A DNA stretch of 63,616 nucleotides, the filler included, from Reclinomonas americana ATCC 50394 (lineage: Eukaryota), in NCBI GenBank assembly GCA_048213135.1. It is 7 parts of 3 records of this genome, joined end to end, with 100 filler letters (N's around TTAATTAATTAA, not from the genome) between each part and the next. Parts side by side here need not be neighbours in the genome. Positions count along the whole stretch, not along the records: positions 7,527 to 29,493 come from PS015110.1; 6 more parts are not named here. One strand, written 5' to 3'. Made by a program: the position numbers and the translations under genes. The stretch's first letter is position 1. Each line of letters begins with the position of its first letter. Below are positions 17,327 through 50,490 of this stretch, one piece after another. The notes under the pieces are model-generated. The model did not search any database. It was not told the DNA's origin and saw nothing but the letters and a program-made list of their open reading frames with translations.

Positions 17327-20033
17327 NNNNNNNNNNNNNNNNNNNNNNNNNNNNNNNNNNNNNNNNNNNNNNNNNNNNNNNNNNNNNNNNNNNNNNNNNN
17401 NNNAGAGAGAGTGAGAGAGAGAGAGAGTGAGAAACACACACAAAGAGATATGAGCAGAATGCCGCTGTCGAGATTACATCCTCAATTGCATCCCTCTGTC
17501 TTTCTCTTGGCCTCATGCTTTTTCTCTCTCTCTCTCTCCTGTCTTCTGAATGTACACTTTCCTGCCATTTCCCGGTCTTCTTTGTCTCCTGCTTCTCTTC
17601 ATTGTATTCCTGACTGTATCCTGCTGCAGCCTTTCTCCTTGCCTCACTCTCTCTCTCTCTCTCCTCTCTCCTCTCTCCTTCCTTTCTTCCGATTGCACTC
17701 GTTCCTGGTAATGCATATGCGTGCATTCTTCTCTGTCTCGTCTTATTGCATGTAGGGTTAGCTCCTTTCATCGTGACTTCTTCTCTTCTCCTCCGCCTTG
17801 AGGCTGTCTCTCATCTTCTTTATGTTCAGCCTCTCTCCTTCTCTGGTTCGCTCCTATCATCATGTCTTCTTCTCTTCTCCTCCGCCTTGGGGCTGTCTCT
17901 CTCGTCTTCTTTATGTTCAGCCTCTCTCCTTCTCTGGTTCGCTCCTATCATCGTGACTTCTTCTCTTCTCCTCCGCCTTGAGGCTGTCTCTCGTCGTCTT
18001 TGTGTTCAGCCTCTCTCCTTCCCTGTCCCTCATACAGATGGCGTTCCGCGCTCTCTCCTTCCCTTCTCCTTCCATTAGCTCGCACTTGGGTTGACTGCAG
18101 TCTGTCTCTCTCGTACCTTCTTCTCTTCTTCCCGTTGTGCTGCTTGCTCTCTCGCTCTTGTTGCTGCTCTCCTTCCCTGTCCGTCACACAGACGGGGTTC
18201 CGCACTCTCGCGCACTCTTCTTTTCGTTTTCGATTGCACTCCGTGCACTCGAGTTGACTCCTGTCGGTGTGCATGTGCGGTCTCTGTCTCTCTGCTGCCT
18301 TCCTCTCTTCTTCCCGTTGTTGCCGATCTCTTCTCCTTCCCTCTTCTGCCTTTTGAATCATCAGCTTGCATTCTTTTCTGACTTGCAGTCCTCCATTCCT
18401 CTCATTCCGTGCCCCTTCACTCTCCCCTCTGACCCCCTCTTCCCATTCCTTTCCCACAGTACCCATCACCCCCGACAAGCTCCCCTCCGCCGCCGCGCTG
18501 TCTCTCTCACTTCCCGGCCACTTTCACGTCATCATCGATCACGAGGTGCAGCTGGACGCGATCGTCGCCTTTGGAGCGCCCTCCTCGTCAGTACCGTGGT
18601 CGGTGTGGATCATGGTGGACTGCGGATACGGTGAGTAGGCGCCTCCTTCTTCCCTTTCCCCTTACCTGTCACTCTTCTCACACCACGCAGGCCGCGACGG
18701 CTGCGACCCCGAGTGCCCCACCTCCCTCGAACTCGCCAAACGCGTGGCCGCCGCCGACTCCACCGTGACGGTGCTGGGCGGTCTGTACACGCACGGCGGC
18801 CACTCGTACGACGCCTCCGACGCTGCGACCGTCCGGCAGGTGGCCGCCGCCGAGCGCGACGCCGTCACCGGCTTTGCCGCCCGCCTGCGTGCCCTCGGTC
18901 TGACGGTGCCGGTGGTGTCGGTCGGCTCGACGCCCACCTGCTCGCTGCCGCCCACCGACGGACACGGTCTGAGTGGCGTCGACGAGATCCACCCGGGCAA
19001 TTACATCTACTACGACATGATGCAGGCGACGCTGGGTGCGTGTCGGATGCGCGACATTGCCGTGCGCGTGTTGACGCGAGTGGTCGGGCACTATCCGAAG
19101 CGCGGAATGTTGCTGGTGGATATGGGGTGGCGGGGGTGCACGGATCAGGTGAGGGGAAGGGAAGAGAAGGGGAAGGCAGAATCGTCTCATTTTCCTCGTC
19201 TTTAGTTGTGCCTTGCTGAGCAGGCGAAATGCATTTCGGTTGTGCAGGATATCGTTTCTTCAACTACATCACTGCACGTAGACACTCTGTGACGTGCGTC
19301 AACCTCCTCTCGTAGTCTCATTCTCTTCCTTTCCCGTCTACCACTTTTACCTGCAGTGGCTCACTCGGTGCTGCGTTTGCATTCTGCCACATTCAATGTC
19401 TCCTCGTGACTTGGTGCGAGGTTCTGCCCTCCCACACATCACACACACGCACACACAGCTTTCTGCAGAATCAAATGCCATCTCACATCGTCCATTCAAG
19501 CTTCAGTTGCACCGCTTTCACACGCATTGCCTTCCCGAGTTGAGCTCCCCTCACAACTTTTCTGTCTCTCCGCTTTCCCAATCTCCTCTCCATTTCGCGC
19601 AATGTGCCCATTCCTCCGCTGACATATAGTCGTACTTGCATTCTGTTCTTGGCTCATGACCTCCTCTTCCCCATTCTCCCCTTCCTCACCCCCCTTCCCC
19701 TCTTACCCCCTTTTCCCATCGTCGCAGGGCCGCGACCACGGCTTCGGCCAATTCCTCGACCACCCCGAACTCCGCATCACCAGCCTCAAGCAAGAGTGCG
19801 GCGAAGTGGAGGCCGCCCCCGGTCAACCCCCTCTCGACTTCTCGCTGTACCCCATCGGCAGCATTCTCCGCTTCCTGCCGTGGCACGCGTGCGCCGCCAC
19901 CGCCATGCACGACACGGTGCATGTGCTCGACATTCCGGAGGGCAAACCGGTAACGGTCGACGACGTGCTCTCGTCCGAGGCCGAGGCCGAGGAGGAGGTG
20001 GTGGAGCAGTGGGAGATTTGCCGCGGATGGTAA
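16993..20033 (+). CDS. DSD1: D-serine dehydratase / D-threonine aldolase family, fold-type III PLP enzyme. Exons 16993-17266, 18460-18630, 18691-19148, 19728-20033
   Basis: Motifs TPCL, RPHVKTHK (PLP lysine), VDCGYGRDG, LYTHGGHSY, VSVGSTPT, EIHPGNYIYYD, LKQECG, and PWHAC (His/Cys metal ligands). All GT-AG joins keep frame; ends EICRGW then TAA. Confidence 0.9.
17761..18060. repeat. Intronic tandem repeat, about 90-bp unit, three copies
   Basis: CTTCTCTTCTCCTCCGCCTTGAGGCTGTCTCTC...GTTCAGCCTCTCTCCTT occurs three times in DSD1 intron 1. Confidence 0.85.
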
Positions 20034-20141: not shown

Positions 20142-23100
20142 TCACCACATGGCCTGCGACACCTCTCTCAGTCCCAACAACTGCTCCATGCACGTGGAGT
20201 AGACCTTCATCGCACCCGCCGTGATCAGCGCCACACGTCGTCGATCCGACTCAAGCTCGCCTGTGCGACCGTGTGCCCCGGCTGTGCGCTCGGCTGTCGT
20301 GCCCAGCGCACGCGAGTAGTGCCCGTGGAAGCGCGAGTACACCAACGCAAACTCGTTGACGTACTCACACAAGTGCTGTGTGTTCATCTCCAGCAGCGTG
20401 CGCTCCAGCGCATCGCTGAAGCCCGCCACCATGGCGGACACGGCACGATCGAGCGGCGGCAACTCCGCACACGTGCCCAGCAGCCATTCGCGCGCCACAT
20501 TCGCCTCCTCCTCCACGCTGGCGAACTGGCGAGAGGCCAAGTCGGCCGGCACGGTACGGTAGATGCCCGTCGGGTCGAGGAATTGGAGGGTGGTTTGCAT
20601 GCGCCACCACACAAACATGAGGTTGCCGTAACTAAGAGGGAATGAGAGGGCAAGGTGAGTTGACAGGAGGAAATAAGAGAGGGCGTGGAGCTGCAAACCT
20701 CTTGGGTTTGGTGCCGTAATCCAGTCCATCCGCACCTGTAAACTGGTAGCTGCGCGTGCGATCGCGTGACAGCTCGGCGAAGCGAATCATGTTGACGGCA
20801 ATGAGCTGCGTCTCGCGATGCAGCTGCTCCTCGCTGAGCGTGCCGGCATCCATCTCTGTGTATGGGGGGAGGATGAGCAGGAGGAGGAGGAGGAGGAGGA
20901 GGAGGAGGAGCACCGCGACGAGAGGAGGAGGAAGAGGAGGAGCACAGCGACGAGCGGAGGAGGGGGAGCATAGCGACGAGCGGAGGAGAAAGAGCACAGC
21001 CACCAGCGGTGGAGGAAGAGGAGCACAGCGACGAGCGGAGGAGGAGGAGCACAGCGACGAGCGCAGGAGGAGGAGCACAGCGACGAGCGCAGGAGGAGGA
21101 GCACAGCGACGAGAGGAGGAGGAGCACAGCGACGAGAGGAGGAGGAGCACAGCGACGAGAGGAGGAGGAGCACAGCGACGAGAGGAGGAGGAGCACAGCG
21201 ACGAGAGGANNNNNNNNNNNNNNNNNNNNGGAGGAGCACAGCGACGAGCGGATGAGGAGGAATGAGGAGGAGAACAACATGCCAATCGTCCCCAACTTGT
21301 CTTTAGAACGCAACTCGGCTTCACGTGCTCACTCGACGACGCAAACACGCGCTCCCACACCTGAGTGATGTAGTCACTCAGTGCCACCGTGTTTCCGTGA
21401 CGCGTCGACATCATTGAGCCAGATGACTGCGCATGCACTGATTAGCGATCGTGTCAGCCAATGAATTGAAGGGAAAACACGCAACATCCAGCACGGAGCC
21501 GAAAGAGACGTGCTCCAGCAACGTGTTGCGCTTTGCCCATCCTGCTTGTCGCGAGGCGGCAAACACCATGCGGAACTGGTCGGCGTGCAGCTCGTCGACA
21601 AAGTAAATGACACGAGTGGCTCGCAGTTCCTGACGATGTACGAGTGTGCGTGTGTGAGCACACAGGTTCTGTGTATAACATGCGACAAGCATCCAGTCTC
21701 ACCGTCAAACGATAGTGCAGCGCTACCAGTTCTGTGGTGTCGTACGTGTATCCACCGTCGGCGTGTACCATCAACAGCGGGCCGCCAATGGCGTTGGTGT
21801 ACACGCGAGTGGAGCCGTCGATTTCCTGAGGGGGGGCCAGGTGGTGAGCGTCGCGGATGATTGCACAGAGTGGGAGGGAGAGAGAAAGGGAGGGAGGGAG
21901 GAAGAGCGAGAGCGAGAAAGAGCGACAGGGCGAGAAAGCGAGAGCGAGAAAGCGCGAGAGCGAGAATGCGAGAGCGAGAAAGCGAGAGCGAGAAAGCGAG
22001 AGCGAGAAAGCGAGAGCGAGAAAGCGAGAGCGAGAAAGCGAGAGCGAGAATGCGAGAGAGCGAAAAAGAGCGAGCGCGACAGAGCGAGAAAGACCGAGAG
22101 CGAGAGAGCGAGAAAGACCGAAAGCGACAGCGAGAAAGCAAGAGCGAGAAAGCGAGAAAGACTGAGAGCGAGAGTCTCCATAATACAGCAACCAACATCG
22201 AGACTGCGACAAAGAAGCACATGACAACAAGCCGTCAACCTGCATTCTTCCGTCTCTGACCGATCCCTCTCCCACCCTGCCCTTTTTCCCACCTTCCCTT
22301 TCTCCCTCCCTCCCCTTTTTCCCACCCTTNNNNNNNNNNNNNNNNNNNNNNNNNNNNNNNNNNNNNNNNNNNNNNNNNNNNNNNNNNNNNNNNNNNNNNN
22401 NNNNNNNNNNNNNNNNNNNNNNNNNNNNNNNNNNNNNNNNNNNNNNNNNNNNNNNNNNNNNNNNNNNNNNNNNNNNNNNNNNNNNNNNNNNNNNNNNNNN
22501 NNNNNNNNNNNNNNNNNNNNNNNNNNNNNNNNNNNNNNNNNNNNNNNNNNNNNNNNNNNNNNNNNNNNNNNNNNNNNNNNNNNNNNNNNNNNNNNNNNNN
22601 NNNNNNNNNNNNNNNNNNNNNNNNNNNNNNNNNNNNNNNNNNNNNNNNNNNNNNNNNNNNNNNNNNNNNNNNNNNNNNNNNNNNNNNNNNNNNNNNNNNN
22701 NNNNNNNNNNNNCCCCCCCCTCTCTCTCCCCACCACTCACCTTGACCAACATCCCCGCCCTCTCCAACGCCTCGCACACCGGCTGAATAAACGACTCGTA
22801 CGTGCTCTCAGCCATCTCCTCCAGCGACGTCACATTCAGCAACGCGTGCATCTCCGCCAGGTGCTCGCGCGTGACTCGTCGCATCTCCTCCCACACCATG
22901 ACACGCGACGGCTCCTTCTTTTGCAGCCGCAGCAGTTCGCGACGCACCATGGGCGAGAACGACTTGTCGGTGGTCTCTAGCCGACCGGCCTCACGCGCCA
23001 TCAGTGTGAGCTCGCGCAGTGTGAAGCTCTCGGCCTGCGGATCGCCCTGTCCGCCGGACTCGCGCTGTTTCCGTCGGTGGCGAATCACACCCAGCACGCT

Positions 23101-24298
23101 CCCGAAGTTGACGCCCCAGTCGCCGAGGTGGTTGATTCGGCGGACCTCGTGGCCGCACCAGTCAAGGATGCGCGCCATGCAGTCGCTGGAATAGGGGAAG
23201 GGGAAGGGAGAAGGAAAGGGAGAAGGAGGGGGGCAAGGGGGTGAGAGAGGAGGGAGGAAACAGGGAGAATGAGGGAGATGGAGGGAAACGGAGGGAGAAG
23301 GAGGGATATGGAGGGAGATGGAGGGAGAGGGAGGGAGAAAGAGGGAGGAAGGGAGGAGAAGAAGATGTGAGAGAATAGCGAAGGAAACAGAGCGAGAGAA
23401 GAGGCAAGGGAGGGGGTCGTGAGTAAGGAGTAAAAATGGGAGAGGAGAATGAGCTGCAAGAGGGAAGCGGATAACATGAGAATGAACAAACAGAGGAGTG
23501 AAGCGAGGAAGCAAAGCAATCATCATCATTTCTCTACACACACACACACACACACACCTCTCTCTGCAGTCTCTCTCTCTCTCTGTGTGTGTAAGTTTCC
23601 CTCTGCACCCTCTCCATATTTCTTCCTCTGCTCTCTCTTTCTGCTCTCTCTTTCTGCTCTCTCTCTTTCACTCTATCTTTCTCTCTTTCTCTCTGCACTC
23701 TCTCTTTCTCTCTCTCTCTCGCACTCACCCAATAATCGTCGACCGCAGCTGCCCGACGTGCAGCTCCTTCGCAATGTTGGGCGACGAAAAATCGGCCACG
23801 ACACGATCGCGCGGTCGATACACGCCACAACATGGCTCCGTGTGCAAGTGCTGGTAGCAGTACGGCGCCGACGACGCAAACTGCGCGCCTTCGTCGCGCG
23901 TAAACTGCGGTGCCTCGCCCACCGCCACGTCGTGCACGTCGAGTAGCCTCGGCGGCAGCGGTCGGCCGTGACGCAGCACGTGGAAGAGCGGTAGAATCAC
24001 GGCGGCGTCGGTGAGGACGATTTCGATTTCGGTGCTGTTGCGTGCCATGTGCGCCTCCTTGACCAGCCAGTTTGGTCTGAGGTTGGCCAGCAGGCGCTGC
24101 AGGGGGGAAGGGGAAGGTGAGGGGGAAAGGGGGAATGTGAGGGGAAGGGTGTGGGAGGAGGGAGGGAAGGGGGACTAGGGAAAGGGAAGAGATAGAGCGG
24201 AAAGCGAGAAGTGAGAAGGAGACGAGCAGCGAGAGAGAGAGAGAGAGAACAACGAGCAGCGAGANNNNNNNNNNNNNNNNNNNNTTCCTCCTCTCTCT

Positions 24299-24380
<82 letters not shown>

Positions 24381-24991
24381 GCACACGCACACGCACACGC
24401 ACACTCCACTCTCTCTGTCGTGCATGCAAGACAACACAACATGCGAATCATATGTACACAACACCACTCACTCGGTCTCTCCCTCTCTCTCTCATTACAC
24501 ACACTCTCCACTCTCAACCCCACCAAGCACCACCACCTCCTCCTCCTCCCGCGCACAAGTCACACGCACATGCCCATGTCACACACACTCACACTCTCTC
24601 TTCTCTCACCTGGCTCTCCCATGGCGGGTCTCACAAGAAACAAGCGCCGCGCATGCTGCTGATGCCCATGCCCTTGATGATGATGATGATGCACGTGCGT
24701 CACCACATGCGTGTGCTTGTACGCTCCATGCGAGTGCTCCAGCGCACCTCCCGCGCCAACAACATCATCGCCCACGGAGGAAGACGAGCCACTGCCTTCA
24801 TCACTCGCATGATCATCGCCACTTGAGTGATGATGGTGATGAGCGGAGGAGGAGCGCACGGAGTCTGTCAGCGCCACGTGCAGCACTTGCGCGTGAGAGT
24901 GTGGAAAGGTCGAGCGGATGCCGCCGGCGATGAACTCGTGCAGCGCGTGCGTGTAGTCGACGGCTGCTGCAGCCGTGGGTGGCGCGCTCAT
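20142..24991 (-). CDS. Diverged arginyl-tRNA synthetase-like protein (class Ia core plus DALR domain, spliced)
   Basis: [70 protein letters not shown], and a DALR-like C-terminus ([10 protein letters not shown]...[13 protein letters not shown], then TGA). Family is clear; orthology to canonical RARS is doubtful. Confidence 0.85.
20875..21250. repeat. Intronic minisatellite, about 21-23-bp unit GAGGAGGAGCACAGCGACGAG
   Basis: More than ten direct copies in an intron of the ArgRS-like gene. Confidence 0.9.
21903..22172. repeat. Intronic 12-bp minisatellite GAGCGAGAAAGC
   Basis: Reiterated GAGCGAGAAAGC units. Confidence 0.85.
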
Positions 24992-25784: not shown

Positions 25785-30304
<4,520 letters not shown>

Positions 30305-30813
30305 AGTGCTGTGGTGTGCAATTAAAGAGCTGCGAAGAACGAAAAAAAGCATGTGAGATGGTGATGGACAGGGACTTGACAAAGAGAGGGGTGTCAGGGA
30401 ACCGGGCACCGTTGGGTGCATCGTAGTAATGCACATCACTTTGTTTCGGATCTCTCACTCGCAGAGAACATGCTGGTGCTGAGATGATGATGGACAACAG
30501 ATCCACAGAGAGTACAACAGAGCACGACCACCTAGATGCAGATATACAAAGGCCACGTATCGCGATGCAGCAGAATACGAACCCTGATAGTCATCGCTAC
30601 TGCATTCCGAGAGCGCCCACAGCGATGTTGTCGAGTGCTCTAAGTGTTTCCGCTTTTTTCTTCTTCCTCGATAAGCACCATCGGTCTCTAAAGCAGGTGA
30701 AATCTCCCCTCGCTCACACCCACTCCCTCACCACGCATGCCATCGTACATCCACGGTAGTATCTTGCACTTTACATCCAGCATCTCCTCCATCACCACCT
30801 TGAAATGCTCGCT

Positions 30814-33800
30814 CTACATGTCTTCGTCCTCGTCCTCCTCCTCCTCGTCCTCCTCCTCCTCCTCCTCCTCCTCCTCCTCCTCCTCCTCCTCCTCCTCCTC
30901 TTCTTGCTCCTCCTCCTCCTCCTCCTCCTCCTCCTCTTCTTGCTCCTCCTCTTTCTTCACCATCTCCATCTTCACCGGTTTCTCGTCACCCACCACTGCA
31001 TCATGCTTGTCAGTGCTCATGATGAAACGACACGCAACAGCAGCAGGTGCATGACGATTGTTGCATTTCGAGCACTCACCAGCACGCGCAATCTCCGCCT
31101 TCGAAAGACAACCGTCTCGAAGCAGACTGGTCAGCAGACCTGGACAGTCGCGGAGCAGATGCATGGCCTGCGTGACGAATGGCAACAAAATATTAGGAGT
31201 GCCTCCCTTCCACAACTTTGCTGATTCCTGCCAGCCGAGAGTACGCAGTGTGAGCAAGCTAACATCAATTCACAGAACCACATATCCTGGATACATGCCC
31301 TGGAGTAGCCACGTTCGTCAATCACAATCAGTGGCCTCTCGACAGCATCCACCAGCGCAACTCCTCGAAAACCGCTCTTCTGATGATCCCGCATATATTG
31401 AACTCAGGTCAGTCACCAGGCACGTATCAATTGATGGTGAAACAGCACAAACACCGACACTCACTTCGATGAAGTTGCTCACGCTCTCCAGCACACCCTC
31501 AACTGACTTGGGCGTCCTGTCGCGTGCAGACTTGGCACCTTTGGCAAGTCTCTTGACAAATGCAGACATGACTGCGGATGAAGGGCTGCCAGGTCCCTCA
31601 GACGGCATGCCGCATTCGTCGCAGGCGAGCTGGAAGAGAAGGCGCTGATAATGACGAACTGTGGATTGCAGTACCACGGATGCCGTCAAGCCAAATGCCT
31701 TCAACAGTATCCTCTTCTTGTTGCAACCCTGTTCGCATGTGCGTTCGTTGGGTGGGAGTGAAAGCCGAGCAGCGAGACACCAACAACACGCAACATGTAG
31801 TCTCACGAGCATCAGTTGCTCGTTGACGCTCAACTTCGCAGGGCCACTCTTCCGGCGCTGCGATTGAGAACCATGCAGTTTCGGAATGCACACATAATTC
31901 GCATCTCACACATAGCAGTGAGGGGCGTACCTTGTGTCTCCTGTTTCCCTTCCCGTCATCGTCCTCATTCTCGCTCCCGTCATCATCATCCGCCTGTTCA
32001 TCGTCCTTCCTCTTCTCCTCTTTCTTCACCATCTCCATCTCCCTCAGAGCTGCACATTGCTTGTAAGCACCTGCTCACACTGTACAGCAATGTGTGTCAC
32101 GCAGCCAAACCTCGTTCACTGCACCACTCGACAGCACGCTCCATGTCTCCCTCGGAGAGGCAACCGTCTCGAAGCAAGGTGACCAGCAGGCCTGGACAGT
32201 GGCGGAGAGCCTGCATCGCCAGTGTGACGAACAGCAGAAGGACATTTTGCTTGCCGTATCTCTGCATCAGCTTGGCTGATTCCTGCCACCCGTTCACGAG
32301 AGTACGCATTGTGAGAAAGCTAACATCAATCCACAGAACCACATATCCAGGAGACATGCCTCCGAGTAGCCGTGCTCGTCAATCACAATCAGTGGTCTTT
32401 CGACGGCATCCAGCAGCTCGGCTCCTCGGAGTCCGCTCTTCTGATGATCCCACATATATTGAACTCTCAAGTCAGTCAACAGAACGTCACGATCGGAGGC
32501 GACACAGAATCAGCACACCAAAAACTCACCTCGACGAAGTTGCTCACGCTCTCGAGCACGCCCTCCACTGATTTGGGCGTCGCGCAGCGTGCCATGTTGG
32601 CACTACTGGAAAGACTCTTGCCAAATGCTGACACGACTGCGGAAGATGGACAGCCCGGTCCCTCCGACGGCAGTCCGCATTCGTCACAGGCAAGTTGAAC
32701 GAGAAGGCGCTGATGATGGAGGACTGTGGATTTCAGCACCACAGGTGCCATGAGGCCGAATGCCTTCACCAGTATCTTATTCTTGTTGCAACCCTGTTCG
32801 CATGTGCGTTCGTTGGGTGGGAGTGAAAATCGAGCAGCGAGGCACCAACAACACGCAACATGTTGTCTCGCGAGCATCAGCTGCTCGTTGACGCTCAACT
32901 TCTCAGGGCCACTTTTGTGCCGCTGTGATTGAGATCTTGAGAACCATGCAGTTTGAAATGCACACAACATTCAAGTTTTACAGAAAGTAGAGACGGGCGT
33001 ACCTTGTGTCTCCCACTTCCCTTCCCGTCATCGTCTTCACTCTCGCTGCCAACATCATCATCCGCCTGTTCGCCGTCCTCTCTCTTCTCCTCTTTCTTCA
33101 TCGCCGCCATCTCCCTCACAGCTGTCGTCTCTTTGTCACCACATGCACACAGTGTACAGCAATGTGTGTCACGCAGCCAAACCTCGTGCACTGCACCACT
33201 CGACGGCACGCTCAATATCTGCCTTCGAAAGGGAACCGTCTCGAAGGAGAGCAGCCAGCAGGCCAGCACAGTTGCGAAGAGCTTGCATGGCGTGTGTGAC
33301 GAACGGAAGAAGAGGATTTTGCTTGCCGTTTAGCTTAGCTGATTCCTGTCAGCCGAGAAACGAGAAAGTGAGACAACATCATTGACGCACATCAACGCAC
33401 ACACAGTCCACATGCCTCCGAGTAGCCGCGGTCGTCAATCACAATCACAGGCCTCTCGACAGCATCCACCAACTCAGCTCCTCGAAGACCGCTTTTCTGA
33501 TGATTCCAAATGCACACGATAGAAGGCAGCTCAGTTGCCGTGCACACAGCACAAGCGGATGTGTAAAGACAGATAAACCAAACTTACACGCACCTCAATG
33601 AAGCAGCTCACGCTCGTGAGCACACCCTCCACTGACTTGGGCGTCTTGCTGCGTGCCGTGTTGGCACTATTGGCAAGACTCTTGCCGAGTGCAGACATGA
33701 CAGCGGATGATGGGCAGCCTGGTCCCTTTGAGGGTATTCCGCATTCAGCACAGGCAAGCTGGAAGAGAACACGCTGATGATGGAGGACTGTGGATGGCAT

Positions 33801-36800
33801 GGCCACGGGTGCCATGAGGCCGAATGCCACCACCAGTATCTTCTTCCTGTTGCATTCCTGCTGCCCCGCGTGTGGTGAGTAGGTGGTAGAGAGAAGCTGA
33901 TGGCAGTACCATCGGTGATGCAGAGAATGGAGCAGCACGCAACAAGCAGTTTTGCCAAAATCAGTTGCTCGTTGACACGCAGCTTCGAAGGGCCAACCCT
34001 GCTCCGCTGTGACACGAAAGTTCAGTAACGTTGGGAAGCACAAATCTCTCGCATCTCACTGAAGGATATACCTTGCATTTCCCACTTCGATTCCCGTCGT
34101 CGCCCTCTTGCTCGATAAAATCCTCATCCTGCTCGTCCTCCATCTTCTCCTCCTTCTTCACAATCTCCATCTCTCGCAGAGCTGTTCACTTGCTTGTCAG
34201 CGCTTGTACGCACTGCATCTATCTATCAACCGTCACGTAGCCATACCTCTTCCGCTACACCACTCTGCGGCCCGTGCGATGTCCACCTCGGAAAGAGAAC
34301 CGTCTCGAAGTAGAGTGGTCAGCAGACCTGGGCAGTTGTGGAGAGCATCCACTGCCTGTGTGACGTATGGCAAAGGAATGCTGGGGGTGTGTCTCCTTGG
34401 CAAGCGAGACAACTCCTGCCATCAGAATTCCGGAACACGAGTATGAATTTCAGTATGCACAATGCACACCAAGTATCAGGCAGCCAAACCTCCGAATGAC
34501 CACGTGCATCCACCACAATCAGCGGCCTCTTAATGGCATCCGCCAGAGCAGCGCCACACAGTTCACTCTTCTGCGCAGTGACGCATTTCTTACCGCTGAT
34601 CGTTGATGTGACAGGCGAGATCGATGCTGCTCACCTCGATAAAGTCGCTCATCATCTGAAGAACTCCCTCAACTGACCTGGGCGTCCTAGCACGTGCACC
34701 CTGGACGAAATAGCCGACACTCTTGTTGAATGAACTCATGACCGCCAACGAAAGCCGTCCTCCTTTCGATGTCGAGATGCCACATTCCTTGCATGCGAGT
34801 TCGACGAGAATACGCTGATGATGGTGGACTGTGGACTTCATCACGATCGGCGCCATGATGCCAAACGCCGTCACCAGTATCTTCGCCTTGTTGCAGCACT
34901 GCTCTCGTGTGAACCACACAGGTGGTGCGACGAACACTCAATCAGCCAGACAACTACCAAACAAGGACATGCCTCCAAACACACGTAACAAGGAGCCTTG
35001 CCAGCTTTAGTTGCTCGTCCTTGCTCATAGTCGCAGATCCACTCCCTCGTCGCTATGAGTGCACATCATGAGATGCTGCCAAAGAGTGCATCCACCCCAC
35101 CATCCATGGACGTACCTTGCTCCCGCCACCGTCGCCCATATCTTCATCGTCATCTTCTTCCCAATCAACCCTCGAATCATCCTCTTTCTCCATCTTCATC
35201 TCTTCTTCCTCCACCAGAGCTGCATCTCGCCTGTCAGTCCTAACACAATGCACACAGTACAGTACTACACAACGGATGCCATCAAACCTCTTTCGCTGCA
35301 CCACTCGACTGCGCGTGCAATCTCTGCCTCGGAGAGACAGCCGTGGCAAATCAGCGACGCGTGCAAGCCAGGACACCCACGCAGGGCCTGCGCGGCCTGC
35401 ACAATGAATGGCAGGAGATGGTCGTTTTTCTTCTGCTTCATCTCCATCTTCCATGACTCCTGCAGCACGACGGACATCGTGAACAAAGCAAGTGAGTCGA
35501 CACAACCAAGAAACGCAAGAGCGCACAAAGGAAGGTTGGCTCACCTCCGAATGGCCACGTTCATCCACCACAATCAGTGGTCTCTCAATGGCATAGGCCA
35601 GAGAAGCACAGCGCAGTTCACTCTTCTGCAGAGTTGCACATGCATCGATATTGGCTCACATTCCAGTCGCGCGGAATAGACAGAACAAGACAGATGCTCA
35701 CCTCGATGAATTTGCTCATGCTCTGGAGAACTCCCTCAACGGACTTGGGTGTGTTGGAGCGTGTATTCTTGACGGCCCTGCCAAGACTCTTGCCGAATGA
35801 GTCAATGACTGCGGACGACGGAGAGCCAGCTCCTGACGAAGGGATGCCACACTCCTTGCAGGCGAGTTCAAACAGAACCCGCTGATGATGCAAGACTGCG
35901 GATGTCTTCACAATGGGCGCCATGATGCCGAATGCCGTCACCAGTATCTTCTTTTTGCTGCATCGCTGTTCACACACATGCACAAGCATCAGGTGTTATG
36001 GCACAGCGCATGGAAGAGTGCAATCTGACTTGCTGAGGTGTTGTGGACATAAACACGCAACAAGCAATCTGTCCAGCACCATCTGCTCGTCCTTGCTCAT
36101 GTTAGCATCGAATACATGGCGACCACTCTCGACGCGCTGCAAATGCACGCCCCATACAACATCCACAGTCAACACCTGCCTCACCAACCATCCGCAAACA
36201 TCGGGCATCGCCATACCTTGCTCGGCTTTGTTTCTCCGTCATCGTCACGGCCTGCATCCGCCTGTGAACGCACAAGGCATCAATGGTCGACCAACTCCAC
36301 GCGCCCGCAGCTTTTGTTGCTCGAACCTTGATATCATCGTCTTCGAACTTGACGACAGCACCCTCTCCGTCATTTTCCTCCTCCTTCTTCACCACCATCT
36401 TCAGATCCCCATATTCTGCGTGGTGCTGGTCAACACCAGTGCAAGCAACACCAACAGCGGTATGAGATTGCAGACCTTTTGGATGGCACGACGTGACGGC
36501 ATGTGATATCTCGGCCGCAGTGAGGTGATTGTCTCGAAGCAGAGCAGCCATGAGACCATCACACTCGCGCATCACATACATAGCCTGTTTGACAAATGGC
36601 TGAAGATGATTTTTCTTGTTTTTAAATTTTGTTGGCAACTTCTTCCACGATCCCTGGCACATGCAGCCGAGTGAACGAAGATCAGTCGACATAATCACAA
36701 CAGACACAGAAGATCTGGCAAAGCAAACGCACCTCTGAATACCCACGCTCATCTATCGCAATCAGTGGCCTCTCTACAGCATCCACCAGAGCCGCGCCAC

Positions 36801-47966: not shown

Positions 47967-48018
47967 TCCTTCCCTATCTTCCCCTCCCTTCCCCATCATT
48001 CCTTCCCTATCAACTCAC

Positions 48019-50490
48019 ATCCTCAAACACCAACGTGGCAATGTACTTGAGGGCGTCGCGGTACAGCTTGCGGTCCTCGATCAAAATCTTCAGGCACCAA
48101 TCGTACTGGCGATGCATGCGCGCCATATCCAACGCATACTCAATGTACTCGGCCTGCCGCAGCACCGCAATCGCCGTCTTGACGTCGTAGTGCTGCTCGT
48201 CGTGCGTCTACGTCACAGCCGTGTGAGAAGCTGTCACAGAAAGCATATGAGAGTTACGGAGATCACCTTGATAAAGCTCTCCAACTTGGCATCATCCTTC
48301 AGCTTGGTGTAGCAGTTGAGGAGGAGGGTGGTGTGGTCGGCCGAGGCCAAGCACTGTGTGTGCAGCGCCTCGAGGTAGCGCGTCAGCTGCAGAATGCGCT
48401 GCGCGTTGAGGAACTTGCGAATGACGTAGGAGGGCTCCAGATAGCCAATCGTCTTCAGGTACTGATCCATGGCCGCCTCGTAGTCGCCCTTGCTGTACAG
48501 TCGGTCGCCGTACACGCGGAAAATGTTGACAATGTACTCCTCGTCAAAGCCCTGCGGTGGAGGTGAGGGACGAGGTGGAAGGGATGGTAAAGGGGAGATG
48601 CCACGAACCTGGCTGCGCGCCAAGCTAATGGCCGAGTGGTACAAGTTCTTGCGGAAGAGAATCTCCAGCTTCTTTTGCGTGTCTTTTTCGCGCAATTGGT
48701 ACAGCTGTGCGGGCGCGGAGGTGAGCGAGGGATCTAGCAAAGGAAGAGAGGGCGCTGACGACCGACCTTTTGCACACGTCGCGTGTCGCCCAGTGACTCA
48801 CTGACCAGCACATACACGTGGCCGTACTCGGAGACGATCTCGTGAACGCGCTGCACGCTGAGCGAGAAGGCGATCATGCGATTCGGCAGGTCGTACACGT
48901 TGAGCAGCGACGAGTCCTGTGGAGGACGGAAAGGTGAGAAGGTGGTTGAAAGGGAAAGGGAAGAATGAGTACGCAACTGGGTCACTCGGATCCGTACTGA
49001 CGGTGACAAGGTAGCCTCGGCACCTGCGAATAAAAACGTCAGGCGAATGTCGAGAGAAGAGAAGCAAGCTGACCAACAAACCATCGGATCATGTACTTGA
49101 ATCCCTCGAATCCGTAGCACGGTCCACGTCCCTCCACCGAGTAGAAATACACAGCCTGCACAAGCAGGAATCGTCAGCAACCACCAGAATCTGTCTTCTC
49201 TCCCATCTCCATACACAGCACCTCCTGTCGCGCCACCACCACATGCCCCACTTCCGTCTTGTCCATGTTGCCGACCTTGCAGCCGCCGTCCGACTGCAGC
49301 ACCTCCATGCGCTCGTCTTGCGGCAGAATGCGGAAGCCGAGCACTTGCGCCGTGGTGGCGACAAAGAGGTAGTAGGTGCGGTCCTCCAGGGTGATCACTC
49401 GCAGATTGGTGATGGAGGGGATGTCGGTGCCACCGGCGGCGGCGGCGGCGGCACCGCCCGCGCTGCTGGCGGGGGGTGGTGGGCGGATGACCTTGACCTG
49501 AAGGGAGGGGAAGGAGGGGGGTGGTGAGGGGAAGGAGAGAGAAGGTGAAGGAGAAGGAAGAGAAAAGAGAGAGAGAGAGAGATTTAGAGAGAGAAGTAGA
49601 AGATGGAGGAAAAGAAGCGCAAGAGGGGGACTCTGCAACATCCTGAAGTGCCGTGCAAGAATACGAAATAGACAGACATACAGGGGCATCTGAAACGAAA
49701 CAAGACAAATTACTATACGTGTGTGAACGAATGTGTGCACAGAGAGAGAGAGAAGAAGAAGAAGAAAAAGAAGAAAAAGAAGAGAAGGGGGGAGGAGGAG
49801 GAGGAGGAGGAAGAAGAAGAAGAAGAAGAAGAACAAGAACAAGAACAAGAAGATTGAGGAGAAGAAGCGCAAGAGGGGGACTCTGCAACATCCTGAAGTG
49901 CCGTGCAAGTATACAAAATAGACAGACATACAGGGGCATCTGAAACGAAACAAGACAAATGACTATACGTGTGTGAACAAATGTATGCATAGAGAGAGAG
50001 AGAGAGAAAGAAGAAGAGGAAGAAGAAGATTGAGGAGAAGAAGCGCAAGAGGGGAACTCTGCAACATCCTGAAGTGCCGTGCAAGAATACGAAATAGACA
50101 GACATACAGGGGCATCTGAAACGAAACAAGACAAATGACTATACGTGTGTGAATGAATGTCTGCATAGAGAGAGAGAGAGAGAGAGAAAAAGAAGAAGGA
50201 GAGAACAGGAAGAAGAATAAGAATAAGAAGAAGAACAAGAACAAGAACAAGAACAAGAAGGAGGAGGANNNNNNNNNNNNNNNNNNNNGAGGGCCTGAAG
50301 CGGGGGGGGAAGGGGAAGAAGGGTGGAGAAGGGGGGAAGGGTGGGTGAGGGTGATTGAAGAAGGGGAGTGTGTGTGTAATGAGAGAGTAAAAGAGAAGCC
50401 ACAAAGCGAGAGAATGCACAGAGGAACGAGGCTCTCTCTTTCTCTCTGTCTGTCTGTGTGCGTGTGCGTGTGTGCAAGTCACTGCTCAAT

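What the first reader, a model, noticed from the sequence alone, without database searches (positions are those of the whole stretch)
20142..24100. ArgRS paralog with rewired amino-acid pocket and lost anticodon-recognition motif
Seen in sequence: the HIGH motif reads HVGQ (23749-23760); GDWGTQFG reads [21 protein letters not shown] reads [13 protein letters not shown] (about 21730-21744); YVVDxxQxxHF reads [11 protein letters not shown] (about 21573-21599); the GNT..YLxYA region reads [13 protein letters not shown]; the terminal Met is followed by Trp. Established: in ArgRS the second HIGH His, the Tyr-x3-Asp pair and that Gln contact arginine, while the omega-loop tyrosines and C-terminal Met read the anticodon. 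The ORF is intact across all domains. Inference: reciprocal His/Gln exchanges plus Asp to Glu look like neofunctionalisation (a different amino acid, a non-tRNA acceptor, or a tRNA-binding adaptor comparable to vertebrate DALRD3) rather than decay.
Basis: partly seen in the sequence, partly recalled or inferred. Interest (0 to 1): 0.72.

Follow-up and report, generated by a model that had tools for sequence, protein, structure and literature searches.

The report
ArgRS offshoot that dropped tRNA-Arg recognition
This intact eight-exon protist gene is a fast-evolving offshoot of arginyl-tRNA synthetase, shared with one other unnamed sequence, that keeps most of the arginine- and ATP-binding core while its tRNA-reading parts have eroded, so it likely still handles arginine but for something other than routine tRNA charging.

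Summary
They lie in an intact, 8-exon, 725-aa gene with host-like codon usage. One relative, P0001, was found among 1.84 billion proteins (38% identity, 24 shared rare states), so this is a conserved subfamily, not decay.

The 'rewired pocket' is overstated. The guanidinium residues D118, Y313 and R324, plus N123, are kept. D317E also occurs in 19 of 19 Bacilli ArgRSs, the only ArgRS found in 5 of 5 genomes. H132Q is private to this gene. Q341H is the one shared, otherwise unseen pocket change, and it could preserve the hydrogen-bond relay.

What has eroded is tRNA reading: the A20 pocket and the omega loop. The anticodon domain is 21% identical between the two, against 50% for the core; 1 of 1504 comparable pairs is that low. 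This is the reverse of DALRD3.

Best reading (0.4): an arginine-activating paralog released from tRNA-Arg. A normal ArgRS in the host, expression and activity were not testable, so a fast-evolving working ArgRS remains possible (0.25). Earlier scan notes describe ArgRS paralogs in bacteria only; this sequence had no look-alike.

The parts
24635..24991 (-). Exon 1 (aa 1-119): first in-frame ATG, start of the N-terminal Add1 domain and a His-rich insert (24 His in 119 aa)
   Evidence: no Pfam hit; assignment to Add1 by alignment only
23729..24096 (-). Exon 2 (aa 120-241): end of Add1 (A20 pocket F-x-N replaced by E-x-E) and [22 protein letters not shown] (D221=D118, N226=N123, Q235=H132)
22741..23185 (-). 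Exon 3 (aa 242-390): [11 protein letters not shown], Ins1, AESTY
21703..21825 (-). Exon 4 (aa 391-431): [13 protein letters not shown] (Y418=Y313, E422=D317, R429=R324)
21486..21629 (-). Exon 5 (aa 432-479): [11 protein letters not shown] (H446=Q341, Q449=H344), HVSFG
21333..21426 (-). Exon 6 (aa 480-510): KMSKS-equivalent region SMMSTR, without the 5-residue deletion of mitochondrial-type ArgRS
   Evidence: criterion from PMC8318970; donor of intron 5 (GTTGCG) is weak but gives the same length as the ortholog
20699..20855 (-). Exon 7 (aa 511-562): KYADL equivalent RFAEL and degenerate omega loop (DYGTKPK)
20142..20631 (-). Exon 8 (aa 563-725 and stop): eroded DALR anticodon-binding domain ending SQAMW
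   Evidence: no DALR_1 hit; all-helical model with best but non-significant fold match to ArgRS 5b63, E 0.59

Best explanation
This gene encodes a divergent cytosolic-type ArgRS offshoot that likely still binds arginine (or a close analogue) and ATP and likely activates it, but likely no longer selects tRNA-Arg and would hand the amino acid to another RNA or a non-tRNA acceptor, next to an ordinary ArgRS that is inferred, not seen. Shown: intact gene; ArgRS fold; a distinct two-member clade; retention of D118, N123, K126, H129, G131, R134, Y313 and R324 in both members; loss of the A20 pocket motif, the omega-loop G454 and the normal C-terminus in both; much faster divergence of the anticodon domain than of the core. 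Inferred: D317E and Q341H retune the pocket rather than abolish arginine binding (His can both accept from Y313 and donate to the arginine carbonyl, as Q341 does); adenylation; the nature of the acceptor; the existence of a housekeeping copy.
For: Residue map to E. coli ArgRS using roles from PMC3956977. Catalytic columns at least 90% conserved: 40 of 49 kept by the window protein and 38 of 49 by P0001; anticodon-domain columns 7 of 13 and 5 of 13. Window vs P0001 identity is 50% over 260 catalytic columns and 21% over 186 anticodon-domain columns; 1 of 1504 comparator pairs with similar catalytic identity is that low (mean 38%). Identity between the two is highest at the most conserved catalytic columns, 71% against 38-58% elsewhere. 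The F/Y-x-N A20 motif is found in 130 of 150 comparators and in neither protein. P0001 scores 194 on TIGR00456, below the cut-off of 262, while 5 of 5 comparators, divergent ones included, pass. Glu at D317 is in 19 of 19 Bacilli ArgRSs, the only strong PF00750 match in 5 of 5 genomes. No room for a targeting peptide: the first Add1-like helix starts near residue 14, and the first 30 aa hold 1 basic and 2 acidic residues.
Against: No host genome is held, so a second ArgRS was not seen. The rate control did not show a slowly evolving host: a CSN2 exon ranked 24 of 25 in mean identity, in a set whose named members are mostly animals. Each member has separately lost other near-invariant catalytic residues (window: H132Q, Y193A, Y243H, K306H; P0001: A125G, G309H, H366G, F369I, R383S), which also fits a non-catalytic protein. 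ArgRS normally needs tRNA to activate arginine (PMC7373986, passages), so a tRNA-free route needs an extra, unshown step. Both members keep a full-length anticodon domain (P0001 still passes DALR_1 at 29 bits). The family has two members, comparator pairs are not independent, and nothing was assayed.
Confidence: 0.4

Rival explanations
1. It is still a working arginine-tRNA ligase: the only cytosolic one of a fast-evolving protist lineage, or a duplicate serving an organelle whose tRNA-Arg lacks A20, with enzyme and tRNA having drifted together.
For: All domains are present. The arginine side-chain residues are kept and D317E is tolerated in Bacilli. Terminal Met varies in ordinary ArgRSs. Mitochondrial-type ArgRS ignores position 20, lacks a clear GDYQ motif and has MSTR, as this protein does; some protist ArgRSs resist classification (PMC8318970). 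The host may evolve fast.
Against: Q341H, H344 loss and G454 loss occur in 0 of 125-126 comparators. The anticodon domain, which reads the C35 identity element, is the most eroded part. There is no 5-residue deletion and no presequence. P0001 is below the argS equivalog cut-off. Branch length is 2.7-3.0 against a median of 0.63.
Confidence: 0.25
2. It is a non-catalytic pseudo-synthetase that keeps the arginine and nucleotide pocket as a sensor or scaffold.
For: The two members have lost different near-invariant catalytic residues independently (9 of 49 and 11 of 49, only 4 in common), while all four guanidinium-site positions stay compatible with arginine.
Against: K126, H129, G131 and R134 of the HIGH region are kept in both. 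An amide at the fourth HIGH position occurs in other class I synthetases (HIGN in the two CysRS-like frames). Catalytic-domain profile scores (270, 273) are at the low edge of, not outside, the comparators.
Confidence: 0.2
3. The pocket has switched to another amino acid (lysine, ornithine, citrulline, homoarginine or canavanine).
For: D317E and Q341H, plus T164V and Q165N, are shared by both members, so they were fixed early and kept. D317 is essential for arginine binding in E. coli (D317A abolishes it; PMC3956977).
Against: D118, Y313 and R324 are intact in both. Glu at 317 is used by apparently sole ArgRSs. Q341 and H132 bind the main-chain atoms of the amino acid, not the side chain (PMC3956977). 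H132Q is not shared.
Confidence: 0.1
4. It is a tRNA-binding adaptor for a modification enzyme, like vertebrate DALRD3.
For: An ArgRS duplicate origin was proposed for DALRD3 (PMC7237682, passages). A Dus gene lies head-to-head with this gene, which is weak evidence in a eukaryote.
Against: The conservation pattern is the reverse of DALRD3: core kept, DALR domain eroded.
Confidence: 0.03
5. It is an unexpressed copy decaying neutrally.
For: Very long branch and many private changes at invariant sites.
Against: 725 codons without a stop across 7 in-phase GT-AG introns; codon usage r = 0.85 with neighbouring genes; an intact ortholog at 38% identity with conservation concentrated on functional columns.
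Confidence: 0.02

Closest known systems
Cytosolic-type arginyl-tRNA synthetase (human RARS1, PDB 4q2t/4zaj; E. coli ArgS, PDB 4oby; Pfam PF00750 + PF05746 + PF03485; TIGR00456)
   Same: Fold and domain order (P0001 model, Foldseek E 2e-34 to 4q2t); SSPN/HVG, DWG, ES.Y, Y313, R324; falls inside the cytosolic-type clade alone or paired.
   Different: Q341H, H344 lost, A20 F-x-N lost, omega-loop G454 lost, C-terminus extended, DALR domain eroded, long insert in Add1; P0001 fails the TIGR00456 cut-off.
YadB/GluQ-RS, a GluRS paralog that glutamylates queuosine (PMC7373986, passages; its lack of the anticodon domain is recalled)
   Same: Works-like analogy only: a synthetase paralog that keeps the cognate amino acid and changes the acceptor.
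   Different: Different synthetase family, bacterial, and truncated; here the anticodon domain is kept but eroded and no activity is shown.
DALRD3 (vertebrate METTL2 partner; PMC7237682, passages)
   Same: ArgRS-derived eukaryotic protein outside ordinary aminoacylation.
   Different: DALRD3 keeps the DALR domain, has no recognisable catalytic motif and is reported only in vertebrates; this protein has the opposite pattern. The DALRD3 sequence was not compared here.
Mitochondrial-type ArgRS (delta5-MSTR signature; PMC8318970)
   Same: MSTR sequence, no clear GDYQ motif, no A20-reading Asn.
   Different: No 5-residue deletion (9 residues between FG and MSTR, as in cytosolic type, same length in P0001), cytosolic-type HIGH region, no presequence; P0001 has IRTS, so MSTR is probably convergent.
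NrtL, ArgS-related anticodon-binding protein (NCBIfam NF045898)
   Same: ArgRS-derived protein with a proposed non-ligase role (name seen).
   Different: Bacterial, 327-position model; P0001 does not match it at E 0.001.

Membership tests
ArgRS protein family (homology) | PF00750 catalytic domain and ArgRS fold | tested here: met
   5 of 8 exons hit PF00750; P0001 219 bits; model matches 4q2t at E 2e-34
Canonical cytosolic arginine-tRNA ligase | Guanidinium-binding D118, Y313, D317, R324 | tested here: inconclusive
   D118, Y313, R324 kept; D317 is Glu, a state also in apparently sole Bacilli ArgRSs
Canonical cytosolic arginine-tRNA ligase | Main-chain-binding N123, H132, Q341 | tested here: not met
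   N123 kept; H132Q (window only) and Q341H (both), each in 0 of 125-126 comparators
Canonical cytosolic arginine-tRNA ligase | A20 pocket F/Y-x-N in Add1 | tested here: not met
   Absent in window protein and P0001, present in 130 of 150 comparators
Canonical cytosolic arginine-tRNA ligase | Omega loop and conserved DALR anticodon domain | tested here: not met
   G454 and T456 lost in both; 7 of 13 and 5 of 13 conserved columns kept; no DALR_1 hit for the window exon
Canonical cytosolic arginine-tRNA ligase | TIGR00456 equivalog cut-off (261.65 bits) | tested here: not met
   P0001 scores 193.7; the spliced window protein itself was not scanned
Canonical cytosolic arginine-tRNA ligase | Charges tRNA-Arg with arginine | not testable with these tools
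   needs an enzyme assay
Mitochondrial-type ArgRS | Five-residue deletion before MSTR, and a presequence | tested here: not met
   No deletion; no basic N-terminal extension (a simple count, no targeting predictor)
DALRD3 | Conserved DALR domain without a catalytic core | tested here: not met
   Core conserved, DALR eroded
Paralog (second copy) | A canonical ArgRS in the same genome | not testable with these tools
   No own genome held

The most novel reading that the evidence does not exclude
An old, undescribed protist enzyme family derived from cytosolic ArgRS activates arginine or an analogue and transfers it to a non-tRNA-Arg acceptor (another RNA, a modified base, a protein or a metabolite): a eukaryotic class I counterpart of YadB-type repurposed synthetases.
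Probability: 0.3. Interest if true: 0.8.

Novelty: new variant of a known kind. Interest (0 to 1): 0.5.

Why it matters
Repurposed synthetase paralogs have repeatedly exposed new modifications and pathways. The eukaryotic ArgRS-derived example found in the papers searched, DALRD3, keeps the tRNA-binding end and drops catalysis. This protein does the opposite and has been kept over a long evolutionary distance. If it is active, it points to an unknown arginylation route in protists and to a natural way round ArgRS's dependence on tRNA. If instead it is a working ArgRS, it shows that residues thought invariant (Q341, H132, the omega-loop Gly) can be replaced. The case rests on two sequences and no experiment.

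Tried and rejected
Own-genome search: no genome held. Sequencing runs: none was listed, which says nothing about expression. Word-based search with exon 3 among longer proteins: 0 hits among 583 candidates. Search with P0001 residues 345-640: 49 hits, none other with the derived motifs. DNA patterns for [10 protein letters not shown] in metagenome and viral contigs: 0 matches each. Pattern for GYTYDTTE in metagenome contigs: 1 match, an unrelated protein; introns and contig type limit these scans. P0002, the second-ranked hit, is a repeat protein and was dropped. Host lineage from a CSN2 exon: best hits 63-65% identity, no close relative, lineage left open. Rate control with CSN2: did not support a slowly evolving host. 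The careful tree did not finish; quick trees were used, and the sister group of the clade is unresolved. ESM Atlas returned only ArgRS clusters. Fold search of the exon-8 model gave no significant match, and the model was guided by an ArgRS alignment. No tRNA genes in the window. D317E as a sign of changed specificity: rejected. Loss of terminal Met as a sign on its own: rejected. MSTR as a sign of mitochondrial origin: rejected. The yeast ArgRS-tRNA structure paper is not held, so the anticodon roles of the omega-loop tyrosines and the C-terminal residue are recalled. dN/dS was not possible at 38% identity without the ortholog's DNA. No complex prediction was run.
Full report
Gene. The window is eukaryotic DNA with repeat-rich introns. 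On the minus strand, eight exons (24991-24635, 24096-23729, 23185-22741, 21825-21703, 21629-21486, 21426-21333, 20855-20699, 20631-20142) join through 7 of 7 GT-AG introns into 725 codons plus a stop. PF00750 is matched by 5 of 8 exons in collinear order. Codon usage resembles eight pieces of neighbouring genes (RSCU r 0.85; GC3s 0.76 against 0.82). The model is not confirmed by RNA: no run was listed.

Relatives. An exhaustive search of 1.84 billion cluster representatives with exon 3 gave 757 hits at E 0.001, of which 150 were listed. One, P0001 (823 aa, unnamed, Logan/ENA), stands apart at 49% identity and E 2e-31. It is 38% identical over 458 aligned residues. A search with P0001 (49 hits) and three DNA pattern scans found no third member. 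For comparison I aligned the 174 rows of 380 aa or more (P0002, a repeat protein, removed), dropped 46 fragments, duplicates and one non-homologue, and added E. coli ArgS, leaving 126 comparators besides the query, P0001 and its near-duplicate. These were selected by similarity to the queries and include close kin, so counts are not independent. The query and P0001 share 24 states that are rare in comparators (mean 3.4, maximum 10 for the query with any of 126), and are 39% identical at 155 variable catalytic columns (maximum 25% for comparators). So their grouping in trees (FastTree 1.0; SH-aLRT 99 on 69 of 129 rows, quick tree, with a long-branch warning) reflects real kinship. Each alone, among 40 comparators, falls in the clade that holds the named eukaryotic cytosolic-type sequences, with branch lengths 3.0 and 2.7 against a median of 0.63; the sister group is unresolved. 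The P0001 model (mean pLDDT 77) has the ArgRS fold, closest to human ArgRS.

Amino-acid pocket. Roles come from Bi et al. 2014 (PMC3956977; parts 1-3 of 4 read). D118, Y313 and D317 bind the guanidinium, and R324 holds D118. A121, N123, H132 and Q341 bind main-chain atoms. Q341 accepts a hydrogen bond from Y313 and donates one to arginine. D118A and D317A abolish binding. Mapped on E. coli ArgS, both proteins keep D118, N123, Y313 and R324 and share D317E and Q341H. H132Q, Y243H and K306H are private to the window gene. So the 'reciprocal His/Gln exchange' is not a family feature: Q341H came first, H132Q later. Glu at 317 is present in 19 of 19 Bacilli-type loci, and in 5 of 5 of those genomes tested this gene is the only strong PF00750 match. 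The weak second match was read in 2 of the 5 and has CysRS-like motifs (label recalled). These are MAGs with completeness not given. D317E therefore does not imply a new amino acid. Q341H occurs in 0 of 126 comparators and is the real signature. His could fill the same donor and acceptor role (inference).

tRNA reading. A20 and C35 are the main identity elements for cytosolic-type ArgRS (PMC9976931, passages; PMC8318970, parts 1-3 of 5). The F/Y-x-N A20 motif (printed as Y84-N82 in Bi et al.; F82/N84 in the fetched sequence) is in 130 of 150 comparators and absent from both proteins. In the omega loop, described as a switch on tRNA binding (PMC3956977), G454 and T456 are lost in both; KYADL reads RFAEL or KFTEL. 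The anticodon contacts of the following tyrosines and of the terminal residue are recalled, as the yeast structure paper is not held. Terminal Met itself varies among ordinary ArgRSs, but both proteins extend past that position. Quantitatively, the two proteins are 50% identical in the core and 21% in the anticodon domain; comparator pairs with similar core identity average 38%, and 1 of 1504 is as low. Against profiles built from the comparators, core scores are 270 and 273 (median 357, lowest 264) and anticodon-domain scores 56 and 88 (median 214; four comparators score lower than 56). The window's last exon has no DALR_1 hit but models as a helical bundle whose best, non-significant match is ArgRS.

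Mechanism. Selection has held the arginine and ATP half of the enzyme and let the tRNA-identity surfaces go. The simplest reading is an enzyme that still activates arginine or a close analogue and delivers it to something other than tRNA-Arg, working like YadB (PMC7373986, passages). Activity, acceptor and a housekeeping second copy are inferred. Results against this reading: no genome was available to show a second ArgRS; the CSN2 control placed the host near the bottom for conservation, rank 24 of 25, though in an animal-heavy set; each member has lost its own set of near-invariant core residues; and ArgRS normally needs tRNA to activate arginine. A fast-evolving working ligase (0.25) and a non-catalytic arginine-binding protein (0.2) stay open. 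A mitochondrial-type origin is unlikely: the MSTR sequence lacks the diagnostic five-residue deletion (PMC8318970) and there is no presequence. A DALRD3-like role is contradicted by the reversed conservation pattern (PMC7237682, passages).

Novelty. Paper searches (listings only, library limited to open papers) showed no description of such a eukaryotic ArgRS offshoot. Igloi's wider surveys of eukaryotic ArgRS, cited in PMC8318970, and that paper's supplement were not seen and might list it. Passages of PMC4742068 and of bioRxiv 10.64898/2025.12.02.691738 (duplicate, antibiotic-resistant bacterial ArgRSs) were read and add only context. The scan's earlier notes hold no look-alike sequence but describe several bacterial ArgRS paralogs, one said to keep its arginine pocket (unchecked).

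Verdict. A real, conserved, apparently undescribed variant of the ArgRS family, not a member of the canonical ligase class by several tested features. Function is inferred. Interest 0.5.

Noticed in passing
L003-L021 (genome contigs): A clade of ArgRS from uncultured, mostly Bacilli-labelled MAGs has Glu at the position of E. coli D317 (19 of 19) and is the only strong ArgRS match in 5 of 5 genomes tested; a natural variant of a residue essential for arginine binding.
   Followed up: partly
window 25854-28550 (+): A dihydrouridine synthase gene (PF01207; DUS2-like label recalled) starts head-to-head about 860 bp from the ArgRS-like ATG. Probably coincidence, but both concern tRNA.
   Followed up: partly
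window about 18360-20033 (+): A D-serine dehydratase / D-threonine aldolase-like PLP enzyme gene (PF01168, PF14031) ends about 110 bp from the stop of the ArgRS-like gene, tail to tail.
   Followed up: partly
window 24635-24991 (-): His-rich insert (24 His in 119 aa) inside the N-terminal domain; P0001 has a long Ser/Pro-rich, low-confidence insert in the same region instead.
   Followed up: no
window about 30800-36300: Several mutually similar ORF fragments on the minus strand without a meaningful Pfam hit (2 scanned); possibly a degenerate repeat or gene family.
   Followed up: no
window 48013-48797 (-), 53460-55519 (+), 61774-63615 (-): VPS11, a kinesin and COP9 signalosome subunit 2; the CSN2 exon has no close relative (63-65% at best), so the host is a poorly sampled protist.
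   Followed up: partly
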